Below are positions 9,891-30,184 of a stretch of 64,000 bases of DNA, one piece after another. The DNA comes from a virus (lineage: Duplodnaviria; Heunggongvirae; Uroviricota; Caudoviricetes), in IMG/VR virus record IMGVR_UViG_2609459792_000007. One strand, given 5' to 3'. The position numbers were made by a program, and so were the translations under genes. The notes beneath the pieces were generated by a model that saw nothing but the letters and a program-made list of their open reading frames with translations, searched no databases and was not told the origin of the DNA. Numbering within the stretch: position 1 is the stretch's first letter; each line of letters starts with the position of its first letter.

Positions 9891-10169
9891 TTATTTTAAT
9901 CTGCTTAATAGCGTTTCGAGATCTTCCTTTGTCATATTAGAGTTCTCATAGATACGCATGATTTTCTCACGAGTCTTAGCGGAAGCCCCGACAGAAGATA
10001 TAACCTTGTCAAAGTCGGCCATTGTCAATTGTTCCAGAATGGTATTTATGACTTCAGCCTTAGACATTTTGATATTTTTTTCTTTTAGTTTCACTTGAAA
10101 CTTTCCAAGTTTGTCATTGGCCTTATCAGACAATGCTACCTGACAGTAAGTTGTTTTCTTTTCACTCAT
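9891..10169 (-). CDS. hypothetical protein (92 aa)
   Basis: ORF directly downstream of helicase gene on minus strand. Confidence 0.5.
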   Translation of the reverse strand: MSEKKTTYCQVALSDKANDKLGKFQVKLKEKNIKMSKAEVINTILEQLTMADFDKVISSVGASAKTREKIMRIYENSNMTKEDLETLLSRLK

Positions 10170-10171
10170 AA

Positions 10172-11731
10172 CTAATCTCGTTTCAGAACTCCAAAATCGA
10201 ATGCTCCATCAATAGGCAATACACCTTCTGCAAAGCCAGGTGTGGTGTCGATGATGTGTTTTCGCTCATAAGAGTGAGACAACAGGTATTTGTTGCTAAT
10301 GTCAATGAAATCAGTGATAAAACACACGTTTGCCTGATTTTTTTTGGCTCGTAAGCCACGACCGACACGCTGTCTCATTTCAACTTCTGCTTTCCCACCA
10401 CCAGCAAGAATGACCGCACCAACGCTTGGCACATCAACACCAACATCCAGAATAGTCGAGCCTATTAAAACATCTATTTCACCAGACGCTAAACTATTCA
10501 GCTTTGCTTGCCTTGTCGTCTGGTTAGATTCCCCATAGATGAAATCAACTTTAAGACCTGACTCCTTCATCATCTCCATCAGGATTTGCCCGTGGCGTTT
10601 AAGACGAACCAGAGTCATGCAGTTGAGTGAATGTTGCTTATAAAGCAATGCCTCGCGCACTATGGCCTCGTTACGTCCCAAATTATACACGATCCCCAAC
10701 TGATAAGCCTTTTGGTAGGCGGTGCCCATACCAACTCTAAAATTGAGGTGTTTGTTGGCAAGTTCGGCCTTGATTCTGGCCTCGTCTGGCTTGTAGGCAA
10801 CTTTATGATAAAGGAAGTACGGCTTTGCCAGAATGCCTCGATCAATCAGGTACTTTTCTGTGACTTTAATTTCAATTCGCCCGGCCACCGCCATCAGGCG
10901 CATGTTGGCTTCCGTCGAATCCTTCATGAACGGCGTGGCTGTAAGCGCCAGACGATAGTCTGCGTTCACACATAATCTGGCAATGTCATAGAAATTAGAG
11001 CCTGAAGACTCATGCGCTTCTTCCAGAATAAGCAGAGACACACTTGAAAGGAAGCGTTTCACCAACTCCCGACGTTTGAGGTGGTAGCTCTTTTTATCTG
11101 GTGTTGCATCGCGTGGTGGTTCTTCAAGGAAACTTGCCAGAGTTTGAACTGTAGCGACGTTGATATGTCGTGATACCTGGAACTCACCCGAGCCAATGAC
11201 TCCAACCTTTTGGCCCTTTAACCACGGTTCGCCATTTTCGGCGCGGTAGTCGATGGATCTCTGGAAGTTTTCGGCCATTTGAAACATCAGAACAGAGCGG
11301 GTTGTTAAAAATAATGTCATTCGACCGATACGTGCAGCTGCTTTGCAGGCAACGTTAGATTTCCCGCCACCAGTAGCGATCTGCGCAATCATCATTCCCT
11401 CTCGAACCAGTGTTTCCACAGTCTGATCCTGATACGCATAATCAGGATTGTATGGGAATGGGTTAACCGCCGGATTTGGTTTACCAAGCGCCGGGGCTTT
11501 GTCTTTGCGGATATGAACACATTTGATGCCCGCCTTGTTCAAGTTCGCCGCTACAGGCTTGGCAAAGCCAGCAGGGAACGAGTTTTTACTCCAGTTGAAC
11601 ATCGTGCTTGTGCCCTTCCAGTCGCCAGTCTCGACTTCGTAGCTCAACATTTGCTGCACCAGTTGCTTTACCTTGTCATCTGCGCCAGAAATAAGCGCAT
11701 TTACTGCGTTAGATACAATCCGAACAGTCAT
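10172..11731 (-). CDS. superfamily 2 DNA/RNA helicase
   Basis: Walker A-like TGGGKS, motif II LILEEAH (DEAH-type), C-terminal helicase-domain-like region. Confidence 0.75.
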   Translation of the reverse strand: MTVRIVSNAVNALISGADDKVKQLVQQMLSYEVETGDWKGTSTMFNWSKNSFPAGFAKPVAANLNKAGIKCVHIRKDKAPALGKPNPAVNPFPYNPDYAYQDQTVETLVREGMMIAQIATGGGKSNVACKAAARIGRMTLFLTTRSVLMFQMAENFQRSIDYRAENGEPWLKGQKVGVIGSGEFQVSRHINVATVQTLASFLEEPPRDATPDKKSYHLKRRELVKRFLSSVSLLILEEAHESSGSNFYDIARLCVNADYRLALTATPFMKDSTEANMRLMAVAGRIEIKVTEKYLIDRGILAKPYFLYHKVAYKPDEARIKAELANKHLNFRVGMGTAYQKAYQLGIVYNLGRNEAIVREALLYKQHSLNCMTLVRLKRHGQILMEMMKESGLKVDFIYGESNQTTRQAKLNSLASGEIDVLIGSTILDVGVDVPSVGAVILAGGGKAEVEMRQRVGRGLRAKKNQANVCFITDFIDISNKYLLSHSYERKHIIDTTPGFAEGVLPIDGAFDFGVLKRD

Positions 11732-23677: not shown

Positions 23678-24061
23678 GTGTTTATTGAAGCGTTTGCAAG
23701 TTTGATGCAGAAGGCAAAGATTGGCACGGTCGGGACTGACATTTTCTGTCACTACTTGCCTGCCAATGTGAAATCTGGCGTCCTGCTTATTAACCCAAAT
23801 ACCGGCATCAGCATCGATCATGAGCTACAGGGCTTTTATCACGAATCATTCACAATCATTGTGCGTGGTTCGTCAATTACTACGACGGTTGAGAAAGCCC
23901 ATAAAATCATTGAGATGTTTCCAGTAGAGGAAACGGAATCTGGTGGTGTTTATTTTCGACTTGTACGACCGATGGCGATGCCAATCATTTATCCCAAAAA
24001 TGATGGGGCATTAATAGAAGCAGGCATTCCTGTTGAATTTGCTGGCTATTTATTGAATTAA
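23678..24061 (+). CDS. hypothetical tail completion protein
   Basis: GTG 23678 two nt after upstream stop, RBS gagagg. Confidence 0.5.
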   Translation: MFIEAFASLMQKAKIGTVGTDIFCHYLPANVKSGVLLINPNTGISIDHELQGFYHESFTIIVRGSSITTTVEKAHKIIEMFPVEETESGGVYFRLVRPMAMPIIYPKNDGALIEAGIPVEFAGYLLN

Positions 24062-24066
24062 CTCAA

Positions 24067-24086
24067 TTAGTAAGTATATACTTACT
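24067..24086. promoter_or_regulatory. family B perfect palindrome TAGTAAGTATATACTTACTA
   Basis: 20-bp perfect dyad just upstream of major tail gene. Confidence 0.5.
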
Positions 24087-24134
24087 ATTAGCGCAATGAA
24101 TGCGTAGAATTAACGGAAAAAGGAGTTTTCCATC

Positions 24135-24882
24135 AATGTCTAATACCCATGTAAAAAACATCAAACTTGGTGCCTGTAAGGTATCGTTTGGTGGTGTGGA
24201 TTTGGGTTACACCAAAGGTGGTGTTCAGGTTGAAGTAGCCACTGAAACGCTGAAAGTCACCGTCGATCAGTTGGGGCAGACCGTAATTTCCGAATTAGTT
24301 CAGGGGCGCAACATTACCATCACCGCGCCTCTGGCTGAGTCTGTACTCCAAAACATGGTTGACCTGATGCCTGGTTCTACTCTGAGCGAAGATGACAACT
24401 CTGTCACGATCACATCTGCACAGGGCGTTAACCTGATTGATGTGGCGAAGGAGCTGGTTCTGACTCCGCAGGACACCACCGACTATGTGTTGACCATCCC
24501 GAAAGCGGCAACCGCGGGCAACTTCACTATGACCTACCAGTCTGATGATGTTCGTGTGTTCTCTGTTCAGTTCAGCGCATACCCGGATGATGAAGGCGTT
24601 CTGGGCAAAATGAGCGGTCCTAAACCGGTAAAAACTGTGTCGATCTCACCGGAATCTCCAACCGTAAAAGCTGGAGAAACTGTGCAACTGACAGCCGAAA
24701 TCACTCCAGCTGATGCCGCAGACAAAACCGGTGTTTGGGAATCCGAAGACCAGGAAAAGGCCACGGTAGATCAAACGGGTCTGGTACGTGGTGTGGCGCA
24801 GGGTTCTACAAATATCTCCTTCACCAGCAATAGCGGTGGTAAGAAGGCAACTAAGTCAGTAACGATTAACCCCGCAGATTAA
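24135..24882 (+). CDS. major tail protein with C-terminal Ig-like domain
   Basis: ATG 24135 with RBS aaaaaggag; C-terminal BIG2-like segment VSISPESPTVKAGETVQL...; followed by terminator. Confidence 0.7.
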
Positions 24883-24895
24883 TCAGTAATTAAGC

Positions 24896-24923
24896 AGAGG
24901 CTCAGGATGGGCCTCTCTTTTAA
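24896..24923 (+). terminator. rho-independent terminator after major tail gene
   Basis: agaggctc-aggatg-ggcctct followed by cttttaaaa. Confidence 0.7.
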
Positions 24924-24937
24924 AAGGATTTTAACCA

Positions 24938-25255
24938 ATGACCAAATTACTCGATCTCGATTCCATTCTGCCTCCGAAGAAAAGCATCAAATTTGGCGGT
25001 CAGGAATATCCCATCGTTGAAATGACGGTAGGTCTGTTCGTTTCCATCAAGCAGATGGAAGGCAAAGATCTCATGAACATGTCTCCTGTTGAGCAAGTGA
25101 CAGCTTATGCAGATCTGGTTCGTAAGGTTATCCCTTCAGTACCTGACGAAGTTCTTGAAAAACTGACTGTTCCGCAACTCCAGCAGATCTTCACCTTCGC
25201 TATGGAAGTGATTGATGAAGAAAACGAAAAAGCGGCTGGCGAAGGGGCAAAGTAA
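24938..25255 (+). CDS. tail assembly chaperone (G-like)
   Basis: Small acidic ORF immediately before tape measure gene. Confidence 0.6.
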   Translation: MTKLLDLDSILPPKKSIKFGGQEYPIVEMTVGLFVSIKQMEGKDLMNMSPVEQVTAYADLVRKVIPSVPDEVLEKLTVPQLQQIFTFAMEVIDEENEKAAGEGAK

Positions 25256-25605
25256 TTTCCCGCGATGAATCCGGGACAAGGACCGTCTCAATAGATCTCG
25301 GATTCTATTTCAGTCGTGTAGTTGCTCACTACGCCGTGTCGCCATTAGAGCTACTGAACGTTCCTCTCACGATGTTCTGGATGCTCAGTCGCAATATAGA
25401 CCGTCTGCGTGCGGAAGAGGATGTCCGCAACTTACAAGTCGCTCGTGCGTCCCAGGCGGATGGCGAGGCTGTGAAGGCGTTCATGGAGGGTTTGCAACTC
25501 AGGATTGGAAGACCAGTCGTAACAGATAAAGTCTACGATCCAAGCCAGGATAAGGCAGACCCTGACGCCAAAGAGCAACTGATGCAAATATTTGGCAGAG
25601 GATGA
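24938..25605 (+). other. putative G-T fusion via programmed -1 frameshift
   Basis: -1 frame is open from 25219 to 25605 overlapping the end of G; A-rich stretch gaa-aaa-gcg at 25226-25234 could allow slippage. Confidence 0.4.
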
Positions 25606-25612
25606 CAAGGGA

Positions 25613-28600
25613 ATGTCACAAAACGTAGAGTTTATCCTGTCGCTGGAAGACAAACAGTTTACAGCGTCAATCGATCGTGCGGGGAAACTGCTTACTCGAT
25701 TTGGTGAGCAGGTAACAAAGCCTGCTCAAAAAATCCAAACCTTTGAACGCTCTTTGGGTTCGGTCGCCCGTATCATTGGCGTTCTGGAAAGCAAGCTCGA
25801 TTCTACGGCAGATAAACTACAGGATGTAGCTGCCGGTTTTGAGCTTGCTTCAGATGCTACGCGTAAAATGCGTGGCAACATCACCAGCCTCAATTCTGGT
25901 CTTAAAGCCCTGATTGAGCGCGTCGATACGACAACTTCTTCAGTAGATAAACTCACCGCGTCATTACGTAAAGTGCAATCAGAGCTAAATGATTTCTCTG
26001 ATTGGGCGACCTATGCAAGCAAAAGCGCAAGCCGCTTTGGTACGGAGGCCAAAGAAGCCTCTGCGTCCGTGAGTGGCATGAATACGCGCCTTAATACCAC
26101 GACGAAGCGACTCAGTAATTGGGGTGTCACAACGAGTCAGGCTGCCGAGGGACTGAAAAAGGTTCGTGAGCAGATGGACGAAGTTATCGGACGTCAGCAA
26201 CTGATTAGCAAGCCGGTACGCGTTCGTACATCTGGAAGTGGCGATGGTGGTAGCGGGCGGCGTAGCGGCGCTTCTGGCCATAGCGGTAAAAGTAACGAAG
26301 GAGGTATGTTCTCTGGCCTTCGTGGCAACATTTTCCTGCTTGGCGAGATCGGAGATGCAGCCAGAACGGTTACTGACATCATGTTTGGGTGGCAGAAGCC
26401 TATTGTTGAAGCTGCGGCCGAAATGGAACGTATGCGGGTGATGCTTCGAGGGTTGAATAAGGAGAAGTCCAACCCGGGCCAGGCTGCCGCTGATGATATG
26501 AAGTACATCGTAGACATGGCGCAAAATGCGCCGTTCGCGATGCAGGCGTTAACAGATTCCTTCGTGAAGTTTCGTTCTGCTGGCTTAGATCCAACCGATG
26601 GTTCTCTGAAGGCGCTGGTGGACTCCGTTGCTCGTTTTGGTGGTGATAGTGAGCTGTTGAAACGTGCGGCTGTGGCCGTTCAGCAGATGTCCGGTAAGGG
26701 CGTTGTGTCAATGGAAGAGCTACGTCAGCAATTAGGTGAAGCCGTTCCTAACGCGATGCAGGCAATGGCAGACGCCGCAGGCATCACTATGGGGGAACTG
26801 ACTAAAGCCGTTGCCAGCGGTACGGTTGAGGCAAAACAGGCGTTGTCTCTGATGTTTGTTGGTCTGCGTGCGGAGAATGAGAACGCAGCGAAAGACATGA
26901 TGCAAACCTACACAGGTGCGCTGGCGCAACTTCAGACGTCATTCACGTTATTTGCTGATCGGGTTGGTCAGGCCGGATATCTGGATTCTCTATCGAAGGG
27001 GATGAAAGAACTGGCTTCAATCATGAATAGCGCCGAAGGGATTTCGTTTGCCAATTCTTTAGGCTCGGGGTTAACGACGGCAATCGATGGGTTGCGTCAG
27101 CTTGCTCAATGGTTAGCAAAGAACCAAGAGCTGGTAATTAATCTCGGTAAGGTCGTGGCCGCGATGGTTGCGTTCAAACTGATGCGAGCAGGGATCATGG
27201 GGGTAGTTGGCGCAGGCAGCCAGATGGTTAGCACCTTTGCCACGATGGCGACCGCCATACAGACTCCATTTAACCTCGGCGCTACAGCAGTAACCCGATT
27301 CAATCGTGCGGCACGTATGGGGCTGGCTCCGATCCCCTCTCTTATTTTCGCCATCCGTGGGGCGATTACGGGGCTTAAAGGCGCTTTTGCTGGATTAACG
27401 GCGTTCATTGCAGCAAACCCTATAGGGGCAGCATTTACAGTTGCCACTGTAGCTGTTGCTGGCCTAATCACGTACATGACCATGCTCCGCAGCGAAACTT
27501 CAAAGGTCGTTGACGAGATTAGGAAAATACCAGAGGCGATGACGGCGGCCAAACGTGCACAAATGGCCGACCGCGCAGAAAAGCTCGAAAAGCAGATTCT
27601 TGCTGATCAACGAGCATTAAAAACTGGTGAGGGTGTTAATTACGTATCTAACTCTGCCGGTGTTATTACTCACAAAGAGTCGAAGGCTGACATCGAAGCA
27701 CGCCTGAAAAAAAATCAGGAAGAGTATCAAAAGATAACCGGCACGATAGCTCTTGGTGACGGCGCTGTAGCAAAGCGTTTGGCTAAAGAGGCTGCCGAAT
27801 CTCAGATTGAGAAAATTCGAGCGGAAAACCAGATTTTCGCGGCAACATTCGTGAAAGCCCGGCAGGAGGCTCTGGATAAGATCCAGAAAATCAATGATGA
27901 CGGTTCACTTTCAGATGACGAAAAGAACAAGCTATTGGCACCGTTACGTGAAACGGTAAACAAAAGCTATCTGGAGCCTGCGCAAAAACTGGTTGATTCA
28001 CTTTCTTCTCGTAAGAATGCGACCGAGAAGCAAATTGCGACTCTTAATGATCAGCTTGAAAAAGCCAAAAAGGATGGAAATACCGAGCAGATCCAGAAAC
28101 TGCAAGGCAGTATTCGTGGTTATCAGGAGCATTTGGAAGCCGTTGCTCAGGAGCTGACTCAGGCAGAGTTCGAGAGAGATAACGCGGCCAAAACTGGTAA
28201 GGGCGTAATGTCAAACCAGGGGACTGTTCTTGGGTTAGGTACAACTGATAAAGCTGCTCAGAAGGCGTTGGCGCAATATATGCGAAACCAGATGGATTCT
28301 GCGACTTATCAGCGTACTTTGCCTGACGGCACTCCGATGATGGACTTCGAAGGTAAGCCGATTATTGGGCCTAAACAACTCAAGACGCAGCTTAATTTGC
28401 AGAAAGCATCCAGTGCCAGCTCTCTGGAGAAAATGAGCGATGAAGAGCGTGCCGCAGCCATTGCCGCACTTACTAAAGCTCGTGAACAGGATGCAGCAGC
28501 TGCCGAGAAAGCAGCCCAACGATCAGCTAACGCCTCGCAGCGTGCGGCCAAGAAGGAACAGGCAGCGCAACAGAAACTGGCAGCCGGATACCAGAAGGCT

Positions 28601-30184
28601 CTGGACAAAGCTGATCAGCTTATGGGGCAAATGGGTGAAAGCTCTAAGGCTACGGTATCGTTTGATCAGTCTCTTCGCGATACAACGAAATCGCTGACAG
28701 ATTTGGCTAATGCGGTACCTAACGAGTTCATCACTCAAGAGATGATCGACAAGGCGAAAAAACGTCTTGAAGACCTCAAAAATGCGACACCTGAATATCG
28801 CGAGATGTTTAATCGCCGCAATGTTGAGCAGATGATCTCCACTTGGGCACCGGAGGCGGATTCCATTATTAGTGCTGGCTATACGCCGTCTCGCGAAGAG
28901 AAAGTTGCTGATTTCGAAGACACCTACAACCGCAATCTCAAAGCGTTGATAGAACTTCGTGATAAGGCGTCTGATCCTAAAGTTGTGGCGCTTTATACAA
29001 AGAAAATCAATCAACTGATTGCTGCTGGCAATACCGCGCTTATTAAAGAGACGGGGACTGCGACGCAGAAGTTGGCACTGGAATACGAAAATCTGGCAGA
29101 GCAGATCGAAAGCACCTGGACTGATTTGTTTAGTGGCTTAACTGATGTCCTGACTGATTTCGTTATTAACGGGAAGATGAGCTTCTCCAGCCTATCTCAG
29201 TCCATTTTGAAAGATATCACCAATATGGTCGTGAAGTCGCAGATCACGCTGCCTCTAATGAACATGTTGGGGATGGGAACCACCGCAGCTGGTAGTTCAC
29301 AGAGTGGTAATTTGCTCACCGGGGTTGCTTCCGCAGTTGCCAATCAAGGTGTGCGCATAAGCAACACTGTTAATGGCGACAAGTCGGTAGGAGAAGCCAC
29401 GAAGGAGACGTCCAGTTCGGTAACTGGATTGGGGCAAACGACACAGCAGACCACCAGCGCAATTGGCACAGCAACAAATGCGATTGGTAGCTGGGTATCA
29501 GGGCTATTTAATAGCACCGAAGCCAAAGATGCTGAGACAAAAGCAGTGAAGGACTCCATCTTCTCGATGCAGAACCTCAGCTCTGTTACCGGCGCTCTGT
29601 CTGCCGCGTTTGCAATGCTTGGAGCTAATGCTTCCGGCTCTGGTAATAAGTGGTTGAATTTCGGCGCGACAGTTGCATCTGGTTTGGTTTCAGTATGGGC
29701 TGGTGGTGGATTCGATGGATTGATGTCCGGTTCTTCTGGCTCAACTTCCGGGTTCAACAATCTGACCAGTTCTGCTGCCGATGGCACGAATGGTATTCCT
29801 GCAATTCCGAAGTTTGCAAATGGTGGCATATTCGGAAAAGACGGCGTGATCCCGCTCCGGGCATACCAGAAAGGCGGTATCGCCAACTCACCTCAATTGG
29901 CGTTGTTTGGGGAAGGCGATATGAATGAGGCGTATGTTCCATTGCCTGATGGTCGAACAATCCCTGTAACGCTCAGTACCGATGGTATGAGTGGAGGAGG
30001 AAATGTTCTTTCTCCTGTATCAATTGAGATCAACGTCCATAGTGACGGTAGCACAACTGAATCCGGCGATACAGAAAGCATATGGAACAATGCCGCTCAA
30101 CGGATGAAAGCAATCGCGCTTGAGACTATCGCTCAAGAGAAACGCCCTGGCGGATCACTCAACCCAAACACTCAACGTAACTAA
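25613..30184 (+). CDS. tail tape measure protein
   Basis: About 1520-aa mostly alpha-helical protein downstream of G/GT; ATG 25613 with RBS aaggga. Confidence 0.85.
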   Translation: MSQNVEFILSLEDKQFTASIDRAGKLLTRFGEQVTKPAQKIQTFERSLGSVARIIGVLESKLDSTADKLQDVAAGFELASDATRKMRGNITSLNSGLKALIERVDTTTSSVDKLTASLRKVQSELNDFSDWATYASKSASRFGTEAKEASASVSGMNTRLNTTTKRLSNWGVTTSQAAEGLKKVREQMDEVIGRQQLISKPVRVRTSGSGDGGSGRRSGASGHSGKSNEGGMFSGLRGNIFLLGEIGDAARTVTDIMFGWQKPIVEAAAEMERMRVMLRGLNKEKSNPGQAAADDMKYIVDMAQNAPFAMQALTDSFVKFRSAGLDPTDGSLKALVDSVARFGGDSELLKRAAVAVQQMSGKGVVSMEELRQQLGEAVPNAMQAMADAAGITMGELTKAVASGTVEAKQALSLMFVGLRAENENAAKDMMQTYTGALAQLQTSFTLFADRVGQAGYLDSLSKGMKELASIMNSAEGISFANSLGSGLTTAIDGLRQLAQWLAKNQELVINLGKVVAAMVAFKLMRAGIMGVVGAGSQMVSTFATMATAIQTPFNLGATAVTRFNRAARMGLAPIPSLIFAIRGAITGLKGAFAGLTAFIAANPIGAAFTVATVAVAGLITYMTMLRSETSKVVDEIRKIPEAMTAAKRAQMADRAEKLEKQILADQRALKTGEGVNYVSNSAGVITHKESKADIEARLKKNQEEYQKITGTIALGDGAVAKRLAKEAAESQIEKIRAENQIFAATFVKARQEALDKIQKINDDGSLSDDEKNKLLAPLRETVNKSYLEPAQKLVDSLSSRKNATEKQIATLNDQLEKAKKDGNTEQIQKLQGSIRGYQEHLEAVAQELTQAEFERDNAAKTGKGVMSNQGTVLGLGTTDKAAQKALAQYMRNQMDSATYQRTLPDGTPMMDFEGKPIIGPKQLKTQLNLQKASSASSLEKMSDEERAAAIAALTKAREQDAAAAEKAAQRSANASQRAAKKEQAAQQKLAAGYQKALDKADQLMGQMGESSKATVSFDQSLRDTTKSLTDLANAVPNEFITQEMIDKAKKRLEDLKNATPEYREMFNRRNVEQMISTWAPEADSIISAGYTPSREEKVADFEDTYNRNLKALIELRDKASDPKVVALYTKKINQLIAAGNTALIKETGTATQKLALEYENLAEQIESTWTDLFSGLTDVLTDFVINGKMSFSSLSQSILKDITNMVVKSQITLPLMNMLGMGTTAAGSSQSGNLLTGVASAVANQGVRISNTVNGDKSVGEATKETSSSVTGLGQTTQQTTSAIGTATNAIGSWVSGLFNSTEAKDAETKAVKDSIFSMQNLSSVTGALSAAFAMLGANASGSGNKWLNFGATVASGLVSVWAGGGFDGLMSGSSGSTSGFNNLTSSAADGTNGIPAIPKFANGGIFGKDGVIPLRAYQKGGIANSPQLALFGEGDMNEAYVPLPDGRTIPVTLSTDGMSGGGNVLSPVSIEINVHSDGSTTESGDTESIWNNAAQRMKAIALETIAQEKRPGGSLNPNTQRN

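What the first reader, a model, noticed from the sequence alone, without database searches (positions are those of the whole stretch)
25216..25260. Probable programmed -1 frameshift producing a G-T tail chaperone fusion
The -1 frame opens at 25219 inside the 3' end of the G-like gene and runs to 25605 just before the tape measure start. An A-rich run at 25226-25234 is the likely slip site, though it is not a canonical heptamer.
Basis: partly seen in the sequence, partly recalled or inferred. Interest (0 to 1): 0.4.

Follow-up and report, generated by a model that had tools for sequence, protein, structure and literature searches.

The report
Unannotated tail-chaperone frameshift, corrected slip site

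Summary
The -1 frame opens at 25219 inside the 3' end of a 105-aa gene (24938-25255) and runs to 25605, just before the tape measure gene (25613-30184). The window is an SSU5-like E. coli phage-plasmid, 99.6% identical to phage Cyrano.

A G-T-type -1 programmed frameshift is well supported:
- The 28 codons between the G stop and the first possible start (25252-25335) are under purifying selection in the -1 frame (dN/dS 0.08-0.24).
- They contain no start codon.
- All three publicly annotated "T" starts lack a ribosome-binding site.
- Five distant relatives with full DNA context (24-30% identity, same gene order) carry canonical heptamers at the same place (A_AAA_AAG, G_GGA_AAG, G_GGA_AAC).

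The proposed slip site (25226-25234) is wrong. In 27 of 56 unique relatives, SSU5 included, a -1-frame TGA lies 10 nt before the G stop. That confines a conserved shift to 25243-25252. The invariant motif there is GCA/GUA_AAG_UAR, so tRNA-Lys most likely slips on A_AAG (25249-25252) next to the stop codon. A downstream hairpin (25261-25318) with some covariation may help.

This is a new, unannotated member of a known kind with a minimal slip site. No experiment was possible. Interest is low to moderate.

The parts
24136..24882 (+). Major tail protein with a C-terminal Big_2 Ig-like domain. It is the upstream neighbour that fixes the G-T position.
   Evidence: Pfam Big_2 at 5.8e-26 and phrog_1280 at 1e-162. 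The start at 24136 has a Shine-Dalgarno sequence (dG -8.2) and is the annotated start in Cyrano.
24938..25255 (+). G-like tail assembly chaperone ORF, 105 aa, the zero-frame product.
25247..25252 (+). Proposed slip site: hexanucleotide GCA_AAG, with core tetranucleotide A_AAG at 25249-25252. tRNA-Lys re-pairs from AAG (25250-52) to AAA (25249-51).
   Evidence: It is the only -1 re-pairing site inside the conserved 10-nt shift window 25243-25252. The third base of codon 104 (A) and codon 105 (AAG) are invariant in 56 unique genes in which 96 of 105 third positions vary. Distant relatives have A_AAA_AAG plus stop at the same position.
25253..25255 (+). G stop codon UAA (UAG in a few relatives), directly 3' of the slip codon. 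It may slow decoding and favour the slip.
   Evidence: It is adjacent in every SSU5-like locus. The stimulatory role is an inference.
25252..25605 (+). T-like segment read in the -1 frame: 117 codons from GTA 25252, then TGA 25603-05. The predicted G-T fusion is 222 aa with junction ...AAGEGAK-VISRDESG...
   Evidence: One search gives the translation. phrog_1131 at 4.9e-40 covers only the part annotated as an ORF. The start-less first 28 codons show variable sites 12/2/22 by codon position and dN/dS 0.08-0.24. The alignment with distant relatives begins right at the junction.
25261..25318 (+). Candidate stimulatory hairpin. The core stem pairs 25267-25276 with 25296-25305. The outer stem pairs 25261-25266 with 25313-25318, starting 8 nt after the slip codon.
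   Evidence: In 12 sequences, 97.7% of cells in the consensus core helices (11 pairs; 10 form in the window) pair, against at most 71% when partners are slid, and 3 pairs change on both sides, for example U25270-A25302 to G-C in L085. Relatives fold with z -2.4 to -4.6 (mononucleotide shuffles), but the window itself gives only z -0.8.
25613..30184 (+). Tape measure protein, the downstream neighbour and presumed client of G and G-T.
   Evidence: phrog_1292 over its full length, plus Pfam TMP_3 and Tape_meas_lam_C. The Shine-Dalgarno sequence before ATG 25613 has dG -6.3.
25226..25234 (+). It is rejected as the conserved slip site.
   Evidence: In 27 of 56 unique relatives a -1-frame TGA at the equivalent of 25240-42 lies downstream of it. 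L085-L088 lack the A-run altogether.

Best explanation
Genes 24938-25255 (G-like) and 25252-25605 (T-like, -1 frame) form a tail assembly chaperone pair expressed by -1 programmed ribosomal frameshifting.

Proposed mechanism:
- Most ribosomes terminate at UAA 25253 and make the 105-aa G protein.
- A minority slip back one base when tRNA-Lys is on the last sense codon AAG (25250-52). It re-pairs with AAA (25249-51). The ribosome then reads GUA AUU UCC... and makes a 222-aa G-T fusion ending 8 nt before the tape measure gene.
- The site is a minimal A_AAG tetranucleotide in an NNA_AAG hexanucleotide (GCA or GUA before it).
- It is probably helped by the adjacent stop codon and by a hairpin starting 8 nt downstream.

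By analogy with lambda gpG/gpGT, G and the G part of G-T would coat the tape measure protein, and the T part would recruit the major tail protein.

Shown here: the frame anatomy, coding constraint on the start-less extension, absence of ribosome-binding sites, a shift window limited to 10 nt, and canonical heptamers in distant homologues.

Inferred: the exact tRNA event, the stimulators, the efficiency and the assembly role.
For: 1. Anatomy and context are as described.
2. All 92 SSU5-like loci (all retrieved by similarity to the window, to G or to its homologues, not by the motif) keep the -1 frame open from the G stop into T wherever the locus extends that far. This includes a 3-nt in-frame indel in the L080-84 group.
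3. The segment 25252-25335 has no ATG, GTG or TTG in the -1 frame. Its variable sites are 12/2/22 at codon positions 1/2/3, and its dN/dS is 0.08-0.24, similar to the annotated T part at 0.09-0.17.
4. Public records use three different T starts: 25336 in Cyrano, 25372 in SSU5 and 25381 in RefSeq PGAP. None has a Shine-Dalgarno sequence (dG at best -1.6), whereas real starts nearby score -5.4 to -8.2.
5. A -1-frame TGA 10 nt before the G stop in 27 of 56 unique genes limits the shift to 25243-25252. Only A_AAG allows cognate re-pairing there, and it is invariant at synonymous positions.
6. Five distant relatives with full DNA context (24-30% identity, same synteny) carry A_AAA_AAG plus stop (L093, L095), G_GGA_AAG (L094, L096) or G_GGA_AAC (L097), 0-4 codons before the G stop. 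Their -1 ORF runs to the tape measure gene, and their T peptides align from the junction. A sixth (L092, 3'-truncated) has GAG_GGG_AAG plus stop, not a canonical heptamer.
7. Published work: A_AAG is the most shift-prone tetramer in E. coli. The shifty tetramers reach 0.26-5.6% with a strong downstream stimulator and are near background without one (PMC4066793). NNA_AAG sites are used by IS1222 and occur in B. subtilis cdd (PMC5009743).
8. Hairpin conservation and covariation are moderate.
9. In relatives L086-88 the same XXA_AAG_UAA design joins the major tail protein to its Ig domain in the -1 frame.
Against: - No protein or ribosome-profiling data exist for this element.
- The site is not a canonical heptamer, and tetramers alone are barely shifty in E. 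coli reporters. The model therefore leans on stimulators that are only moderately supported. The window's own hairpin is no more stable than shuffled sequence (z -0.8), and its arms also encode conserved residues, which confounds covariation.
- The SD-like GAAGGGG (25241-47) is too close for the known -1 stimulatory spacing and is not conserved.
- G has no significant Pfam or NCBIfam chaperone hit, and the fold matches are weak.
- hhalign against lambda gpG finds nothing.
Confidence: 0.85

Rival explanations
1. T is made as a separate protein by termination-reinitiation or coupling at a near-cognate start codon overlapping the G stop (UAAUU: AUU 25255-57), using the SD-like GAAGGGG at 25241-47. 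No G-T fusion is made.
For: The SD-like element has dG -7.1 and lies 7 nt before AUU 25255. Within the SSU5 clade this codon is AUU, AUA or GUU, all near-cognate starts. This would also explain coding constraint from 25255 onward.
Against: The codon is ACC, GAA or AAA in distant relatives with the same layout. The SD-like element decays to GAAGAAG or GAAGACG in relatives. This model does not explain the invariant synonymous A_AAG or the canonical slippery heptamers in five distant relatives with full context. Near-cognate initiation is very inefficient in E. coli (general knowledge). In lambda the G part of G-T is functionally required (PMC5009743).
Confidence: 0.05
2. T is an independent gene initiating at GTG 25336, ATG 25372 or ATG 25381, as in all public annotations. 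The upstream open frame is incidental.
For: Cyrano, SSU5, PhiR41_1, pJN2-26 and RefSeq PGAP all annotate it this way. phrog_1131 models only this part.
Against: There are three mutually inconsistent starts, none with a Shine-Dalgarno sequence. GTG 25336 is ATT in L085 and L086. The 28-43 upstream codons are as constrained as the rest and contain family-wide invariant residues D15 and Y27. No promoter-like site lies in the junction.
Confidence: 0.04
3. The shift occurs at the first reader's A-run (25226-25234), by ribosomal slippage on A_AAA or by transcriptional slippage on the A5 run.
For: In the window and 28 of 56 unique relatives the -1 frame is open from 25219. A_AAA is weakly shift-prone. 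One database protein (P0001) has exactly this fusion.
Against: It is blocked by the -1-frame TGA at 25240-42 in 27 of 56 unique relatives, SSU5 included. The A-run is absent in L085-88. Five As are too few for efficient RNA polymerase slippage (general knowledge). P0001 is a single-member cluster that diverges again after 'SIDL', so it looks like an assembly error.
Confidence: 0.03

Closest known systems
Phage lambda gpG/gpGT tail assembly chaperones (Levin 1993; Xu, Hendrix and Duda 2004, 2013, 2014, as cited in PMC5009743)
   Same: Two ORFs lie between the major tail protein and the tape measure gene. The second is in the -1 frame, lacks its own start, and overlaps the 3' end of the first. 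The shift is near the G stop and involves tRNA-Lys on AAG. The fusion ends just before the tape measure gene.
   Different: Lambda uses the canonical heptamer G_GGA_AAG, ending 15 nt before the G stop. Here there is only GCA_AAG, directly abutting the stop. There is no detectable sequence similarity to lambda gpG (hhalign probability 1%) and no Pfam G or T family hit. The proteins are smaller: 105 and 222 aa, against 140 aa for lambda gpG and, from the annotated coordinates and the slip site, roughly 280 aa for gpGT.
A_AAG / NNA_AAG minimal -1 frameshift sites (IS1222 G_CGA_AAG, B. subtilis cdd A_CGA_AAG, IS3-family tetramer users; PMC5009743, PMC4066793)
   Same: A single tRNA-Lys re-pairs AAG to AAA. 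The 5' codon cannot re-pair. A downstream stimulator is needed for percent-level efficiency.
   Different: The 5' codon here is GCA or GUA, not CGA. The slip codon is the last sense codon, so a stop codon occupies the next position. The setting is a phage tail chaperone rather than a transposase.
Distant members of the same G family with canonical heptamers (L093-L097, metagenomic and Piscirickettsiaceae-associated contigs)
   Same: Homologous G (profile E values 1e-18 to 1e-28) and T, identical synteny, and a shift 0-4 codons before the G stop.
   Different: They carry A_AAA_AAG, G_GGA_AAG or G_GGA_AAC. The SSU5 clade has lost the P-site half of the heptamer.
Ig-like domains appended to phage structural proteins by programmed frameshift (Fraser et al. 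2006, from my own knowledge)
   Same: Relatives L086-88 place the Big_2 domain of the major tail protein in the -1 frame after C_CCA_AAG_UAA. This is the same cassette design as the G-T junction.
   Different: It is a different gene. In the window the Ig domain is fused in frame, so no shift is needed there.

Membership tests
Phage G/G-T tail assembly chaperone frameshift system (functional class, Xu et al. 2004) | Two ORFs located between the major tail protein gene and the tape measure gene. | tested here: met
   Major tail protein 24136-24882, G 24938-25255, T to 25605, tape measure from 25613. The synteny is the same in every relative, including distant ones.
Phage G/G-T tail assembly chaperone frameshift system (functional class, Xu et al. 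2004) | The downstream ORF overlaps the 3' end of the upstream one in another frame and has no translation start of its own. | tested here: met
   The -1 frame is open from 25219. There is no ATG, GTG or TTG before 25336, and no Shine-Dalgarno sequence at any annotated start. The start-less part is under purifying selection.
Phage G/G-T tail assembly chaperone frameshift system (functional class, Xu et al. 2004) | A conserved slippery sequence lies in the overlap. | tested here: met
   A_AAG is invariant in the SSU5 clade, and five distant relatives with full context have canonical heptamers. The window's own site is a tetra/hexanucleotide, not a canonical heptamer.
Phage G/G-T tail assembly chaperone frameshift system (functional class, Xu et al. 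2004) | Both the G and G-T proteins are actually produced at a skewed ratio and are required for tail assembly. | not testable with these tools
   This needs proteomics, reporter assays or genetics.
Tail assembly chaperone fold (HK97 2OB9-type) | The G protein adopts the chaperone fold. | tested here: inconclusive
Lambda-type G and T sequence families (Pfam) and other Pfam Phage_TAC families | A significant profile match. | tested here: not met
   There is no Pfam or NCBIfam hit for G or T at E<0.1. hhalign against lambda gpG gives probability 1%. Only 3 of 108 distant relatives touch Phage_TAC_7, with a best E of 1.3e-4.
Canonical X_XXY_YYZ heptanucleotide -1 PRF signal | Both the P-site and A-site tRNAs can re-pair in the -1 frame. 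| tested here: not met
   The site is G/A_GCA_AAG or C/A_GUA_AAG. GCA or GUA cannot re-pair at -1.
Z_ZZN tetranucleotide / NNA_AAG hexanucleotide -1 PRF signal | A_AAG in the zero frame, with a downstream stimulator 5-9 nt away. | tested here: met
   A_AAG lies at 25249-52, and the outer stem starts at 25261, an 8-nt spacer. Stimulatory function itself is untested.

The most novel reading that the evidence does not exclude
The SSU5 lineage may use a compact 'A_AAG + stop codon + hairpin' cassette as a reusable module. It sits at the G-T junction in all members and at the junction between the major tail protein and its Ig domain in some (L086-88). Because the slip would compete directly with termination at the adjacent stop codon, the G:G-T ratio would depend on release-factor activity. 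That would make it a termination-coupled -1 frameshift rather than the classical two-tRNA slip.
Probability: 0.25. Interest if true: 0.45.

Novelty: new member of a known kind. Interest (0 to 1): 0.3.

Why it matters
- SSU5-like phage-plasmids are common. 232 of 5426 complete E. coli genomes carry this exact region on a plasmid. They also occur in Salmonella and Klebsiella, including a Klebsiella element whose name indicates a KPC carbapenemase.
- Every public record inspected labels these genes as two unrelated hypothetical proteins, with three different invented starts for the second.
- Recognising the G-T frameshift fixes that annotation and assigns functions to phrog_893 and phrog_1131.
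- It would add a natural, conserved example of a minimal A_AAG slip site next to a stop codon.
- It does not change the understanding of tail assembly.

Tried and rejected
- Searching the 5.8-billion protein set with the fused 222-aa product gave only 6 hits, all truncated, chimeric or frameshifted assemblies. None is evidence of an annotated fusion.
- The search for related loci with a 52-sequence alignment failed because no block was conserved enough. Single distant proteins P0040 and P0046 found nothing in IMG/VR. Distant contexts came from the look-up of encoding contigs instead. One of these (P0187) returned no DNA.
- A profile search of PDB sequences gave no significant hit.
- Rfam found nothing in 24850-25700.
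- hhalign against lambda gpG was negative.
- A literature search for SSU5 plus frameshift found no description of this shift.
- Also considered and rejected: a GGG-run slip at 25244-47, because that codon is GAG, GAA or GAC in relatives; the small 5-bp hairpin 25258-62/25272-76, which is superseded by the longer conserved stem; and the SD-like GAAGGGG as a stimulator, which is not conserved and has the wrong spacing for -1.

Full report
**What is there**

The window is an SSU5-like phage-plasmid.
- The region 24000-26000 is 99.6% identical to Escherichia phage Cyrano and 86% identical to Salmonella phage SSU5.
- The 24900-25650 stretch occurs in 232 of 5426 complete E. coli genomes, always on plasmids of about 100-120 kb.
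- On the + strand the gene order is:
  - Neck1/tail completion and a tail terminator (PF12691);
  - a major tail protein with a Big_2 domain (24136-24882);
  - a 105-aa ORF (24938-25255, phrog_893, function unknown);
  - a -1-frame ORF ending at 25605 (phrog_1131, function unknown);
  - a 1523-aa tape measure protein starting at 25613.

**The downstream ORF is translated but has no start**

- Public records annotate it with three different starts: GTG 25336 (Cyrano, PhiR41_1), ATG 25372 (SSU5, pJN2-26) and ATG 25381 (RefSeq PGAP).
- None has a Shine-Dalgarno sequence (duplex dG at best -1.6 kcal/mol). The G, tape measure, major tail and Neck1 starts score -5.4 to -8.2.
- No promoter-like or terminator-like site lies in the junction.
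- Across 62 unique related sequences, the 28 codons from 25252 to 25335 contain no ATG, GTG or TTG in the -1 frame. They vary at 12, 2 and 22 sites at codon positions 1, 2 and 3.
- Their dN/dS against divergent relatives is 0.08-0.24. The annotated part of T gives 0.09-0.17.
- A divergent group (L080-84) has a 3-nt, frame-preserving insertion in this "intergenic" stretch.
- The stretch is therefore protein-coding in the -1 frame and can only be reached from the G frame.

**Where the shift happens**

- In 27 of 56 unique G genes, SSU5 included, the -1-frame codon equivalent to 25240-42 is TGA; it is CGA in the window. One sequence has a further TGA at 25225-27, and relatives L085-88 lack the A-run altogether.
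The shift window is 25243-25252.
- Within that window the codon at 25244 varies (GGG, GAG, GAA, GAC). The motif GCA/GUA_AAG_UAR is invariant.
- The third base of codon 104 and the AAG of codon 105 are among only nine invariant third positions in the 105-codon gene. Five of the nine lie in the last 12 codons.
- No SSU5-like locus lacked the motif, although all loci were retrieved by similarity to the window, to G or to its homologues, not by the motif.
- The only cognate -1 re-pairing available is tRNA-Lys moving from AAG (25250-52) to AAA (25249-51). The next codon read is GUA.
- The predicted product is 222 aa, with junction ...AAGEGAK-VISRDESGTRTVSIDLGFYFSR...

**Family-level support**

- A profile of G finds 462 cluster representatives of about 100-130 aa, many ending in ...GK...GKE...GN[AE] or ...KK.
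- Six distant members (24-30% identity) were fetched with DNA; five have full context and one (L092) is 3'-truncated. The five have identical synteny and a -1 ORF running to the tape measure gene.
- Those five carry canonical slippery heptamers 0-4 codons before the G stop:
  - A_AAA_AAG followed directly by the stop (L093, L095);
  - G_GGA_AAG (L094, L096);
  - G_GGA_AAC (L097).
- L092, the truncated one, has GAG_GGG_AAG plus stop instead, which is not a canonical heptamer.
- Their -1 peptides align with the window's T from the junction onward. Invariant residues D15 and Y27 lie inside the start-less extension.
- The SSU5 clade thus looks like a derivative that kept the A-site half of the heptamer and the position next to the stop.

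**Plausibility of a minimal site**

- In E. coli reporters, A_AAG is by far the best Z_ZZN tetramer. The shifty tetramers reach 0.26-5.6% with a strong downstream stimulator and are near background without one (PMC4066793).
- NNA_AAG sites are used by IS1222 and occur in B. subtilis cdd. Their efficiency depends on the wobble behaviour of the tRNA that reads the 5' codon (PMC5009743).
- A few percent would match the roughly 30:1 gpG:gpGT ratio of lambda (PMC5009743).
- From my own knowledge, which I did not check here, GCA and GUA are both read in E. coli by cmo5U34 tRNAs with broad wobble. That would fit this rule.

**Candidate stimulators**

- A hairpin is predicted downstream. The outer stem pairs 25261-66 with 25313-18, 8 nt after the slip codon. 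The core stem pairs 25267-76 with 25296-305.
- In 12 diverse sequences, 97.7% of cells in the consensus core helices (11 pairs) pair, against at most 71% with slid partners.
- Three pairs change on both sides, and at most 4 of 500 shuffles reach the observed values on four of the five measures, 8 and 16 of 500 on the other two.
- Downstream folds in relatives have z scores of -2.4 to -4.6 (my mononucleotide shuffles). Even distant relatives pair a 5' arm with the codons for IDFGF.
- Caveats: the window's own fold is not exceptional (z -0.8). Both arms encode conserved residues. The structure was derived from the same sequences.
- I rate the hairpin as plausible, not established.
- The adjacent stop codon may slow decoding and favour the slip. 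This is an inference.
- The SD-like GAAGGGG (25241-47) is not conserved and is too close to act as a -1 stimulator.

**Is G a tail assembly chaperone?**

- Position, size and coupling to T say yes.
- The AF2 model (pLDDT 72.9) is a beta-hairpin followed by helices.
- The best BFVD match is annotated "Tail assembly chaperone" (E 1e-3, TM 0.62), and about ten more chaperones are in the top 50.
- Pfam and NCBIfam give nothing for G or T. Three of 108 distant relatives weakly touch Phage_TAC_7. hhalign against lambda gpG is negative.
- It therefore works like a G/G-T pair, but it is not a sequence-family member of lambda G or T.

**Rivals**

- Reinitiation at the near-cognate AUU overlapping the stop has some appeal within the clade, where that codon is AUU, AUA or GUU. 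It fails in distant relatives and does not explain the conserved slippery motifs.
- Independent initiation at the annotated starts is contradicted by the constrained start-less extension.
- Slippage at the A-run is contradicted by the stops in relatives.
- No published description of this frameshift in SSU5-like phages was found.

**Verdict**

This is a real, conserved but unannotated G-T-type -1 programmed frameshift. The slip site is corrected to A_AAG at 25249-25252, next to the stop codon. It is a new member of a well-known kind, with a minimal slip signal. Its value is mainly for annotation, with a modest mechanistic point. All mechanistic steps beyond the sequence anatomy remain untested.

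Noticed in passing
L086:1203-1948, L087:1205-1950, L088:1204-1949 (relatives). The window equivalent is 24136-24882.: In these Raoultella-type relatives the major tail protein ORF ends ...GCC CCA AAG TAA, a C_CCA_AAG heptamer directly followed by a stop. The Big_2 Ig-like domain (96 aa) lies in the -1 frame with no start of its own. This looks like a second -1 frameshift built like the G-T junction. In the window the Ig domain is fused in frame, and L085 (Photorhabdus) lacks it.
   Followed up: partly
window 24893-24918: A strong hairpin (AGAGGCUCA-GGA-UGGGCCUCU followed by CUUUU; -16.6 kcal/mol for the folded stretch 24880-24930, z -3.2) sits between the major tail gene and G. It may be a leaky terminator or attenuator that lowers expression of the chaperone and tape measure genes relative to the major tail protein. 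The simple terminator scan missed it.
   Followed up: partly
window 25205-25252: Synonymous variation is suppressed at the 3' end of G. Among 56 unique G genes only 9 of 105 third codon positions are invariant, and 5 of them are in the last 12 codons (94, 97, 102, 104, 105). This extends further upstream than the -1 coding overlap requires. The three invariant GAA codons are unexplained.
   Followed up: partly
P0001 (ENA protein, 139 aa), equivalent to window 24905-25300: A database protein fuses G to the -1 frame through a 1-nt loss in the A-run 25227-31 and then diverges again. It is most likely an assembly or sequencing error rather than evidence for slippage there.
   Followed up: no
window 24100 vs 24136; 23555 vs about 23678: The mechanical ORF list over-extends the major tail protein and tail terminator ORFs. 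The starts supported by a Shine-Dalgarno sequence and by public annotation are 24136 for the major tail protein and the equivalent of Cyrano CYRAN_11 for the terminator.
   Followed up: partly
NC_001416 (lambda) 10115-10549, fetched as L098: The RefSeq lambda record in this collection lists T as a separate CDS rather than a joined G-T product. Even the archetype is not annotated as a frameshift there.
   Followed up: no
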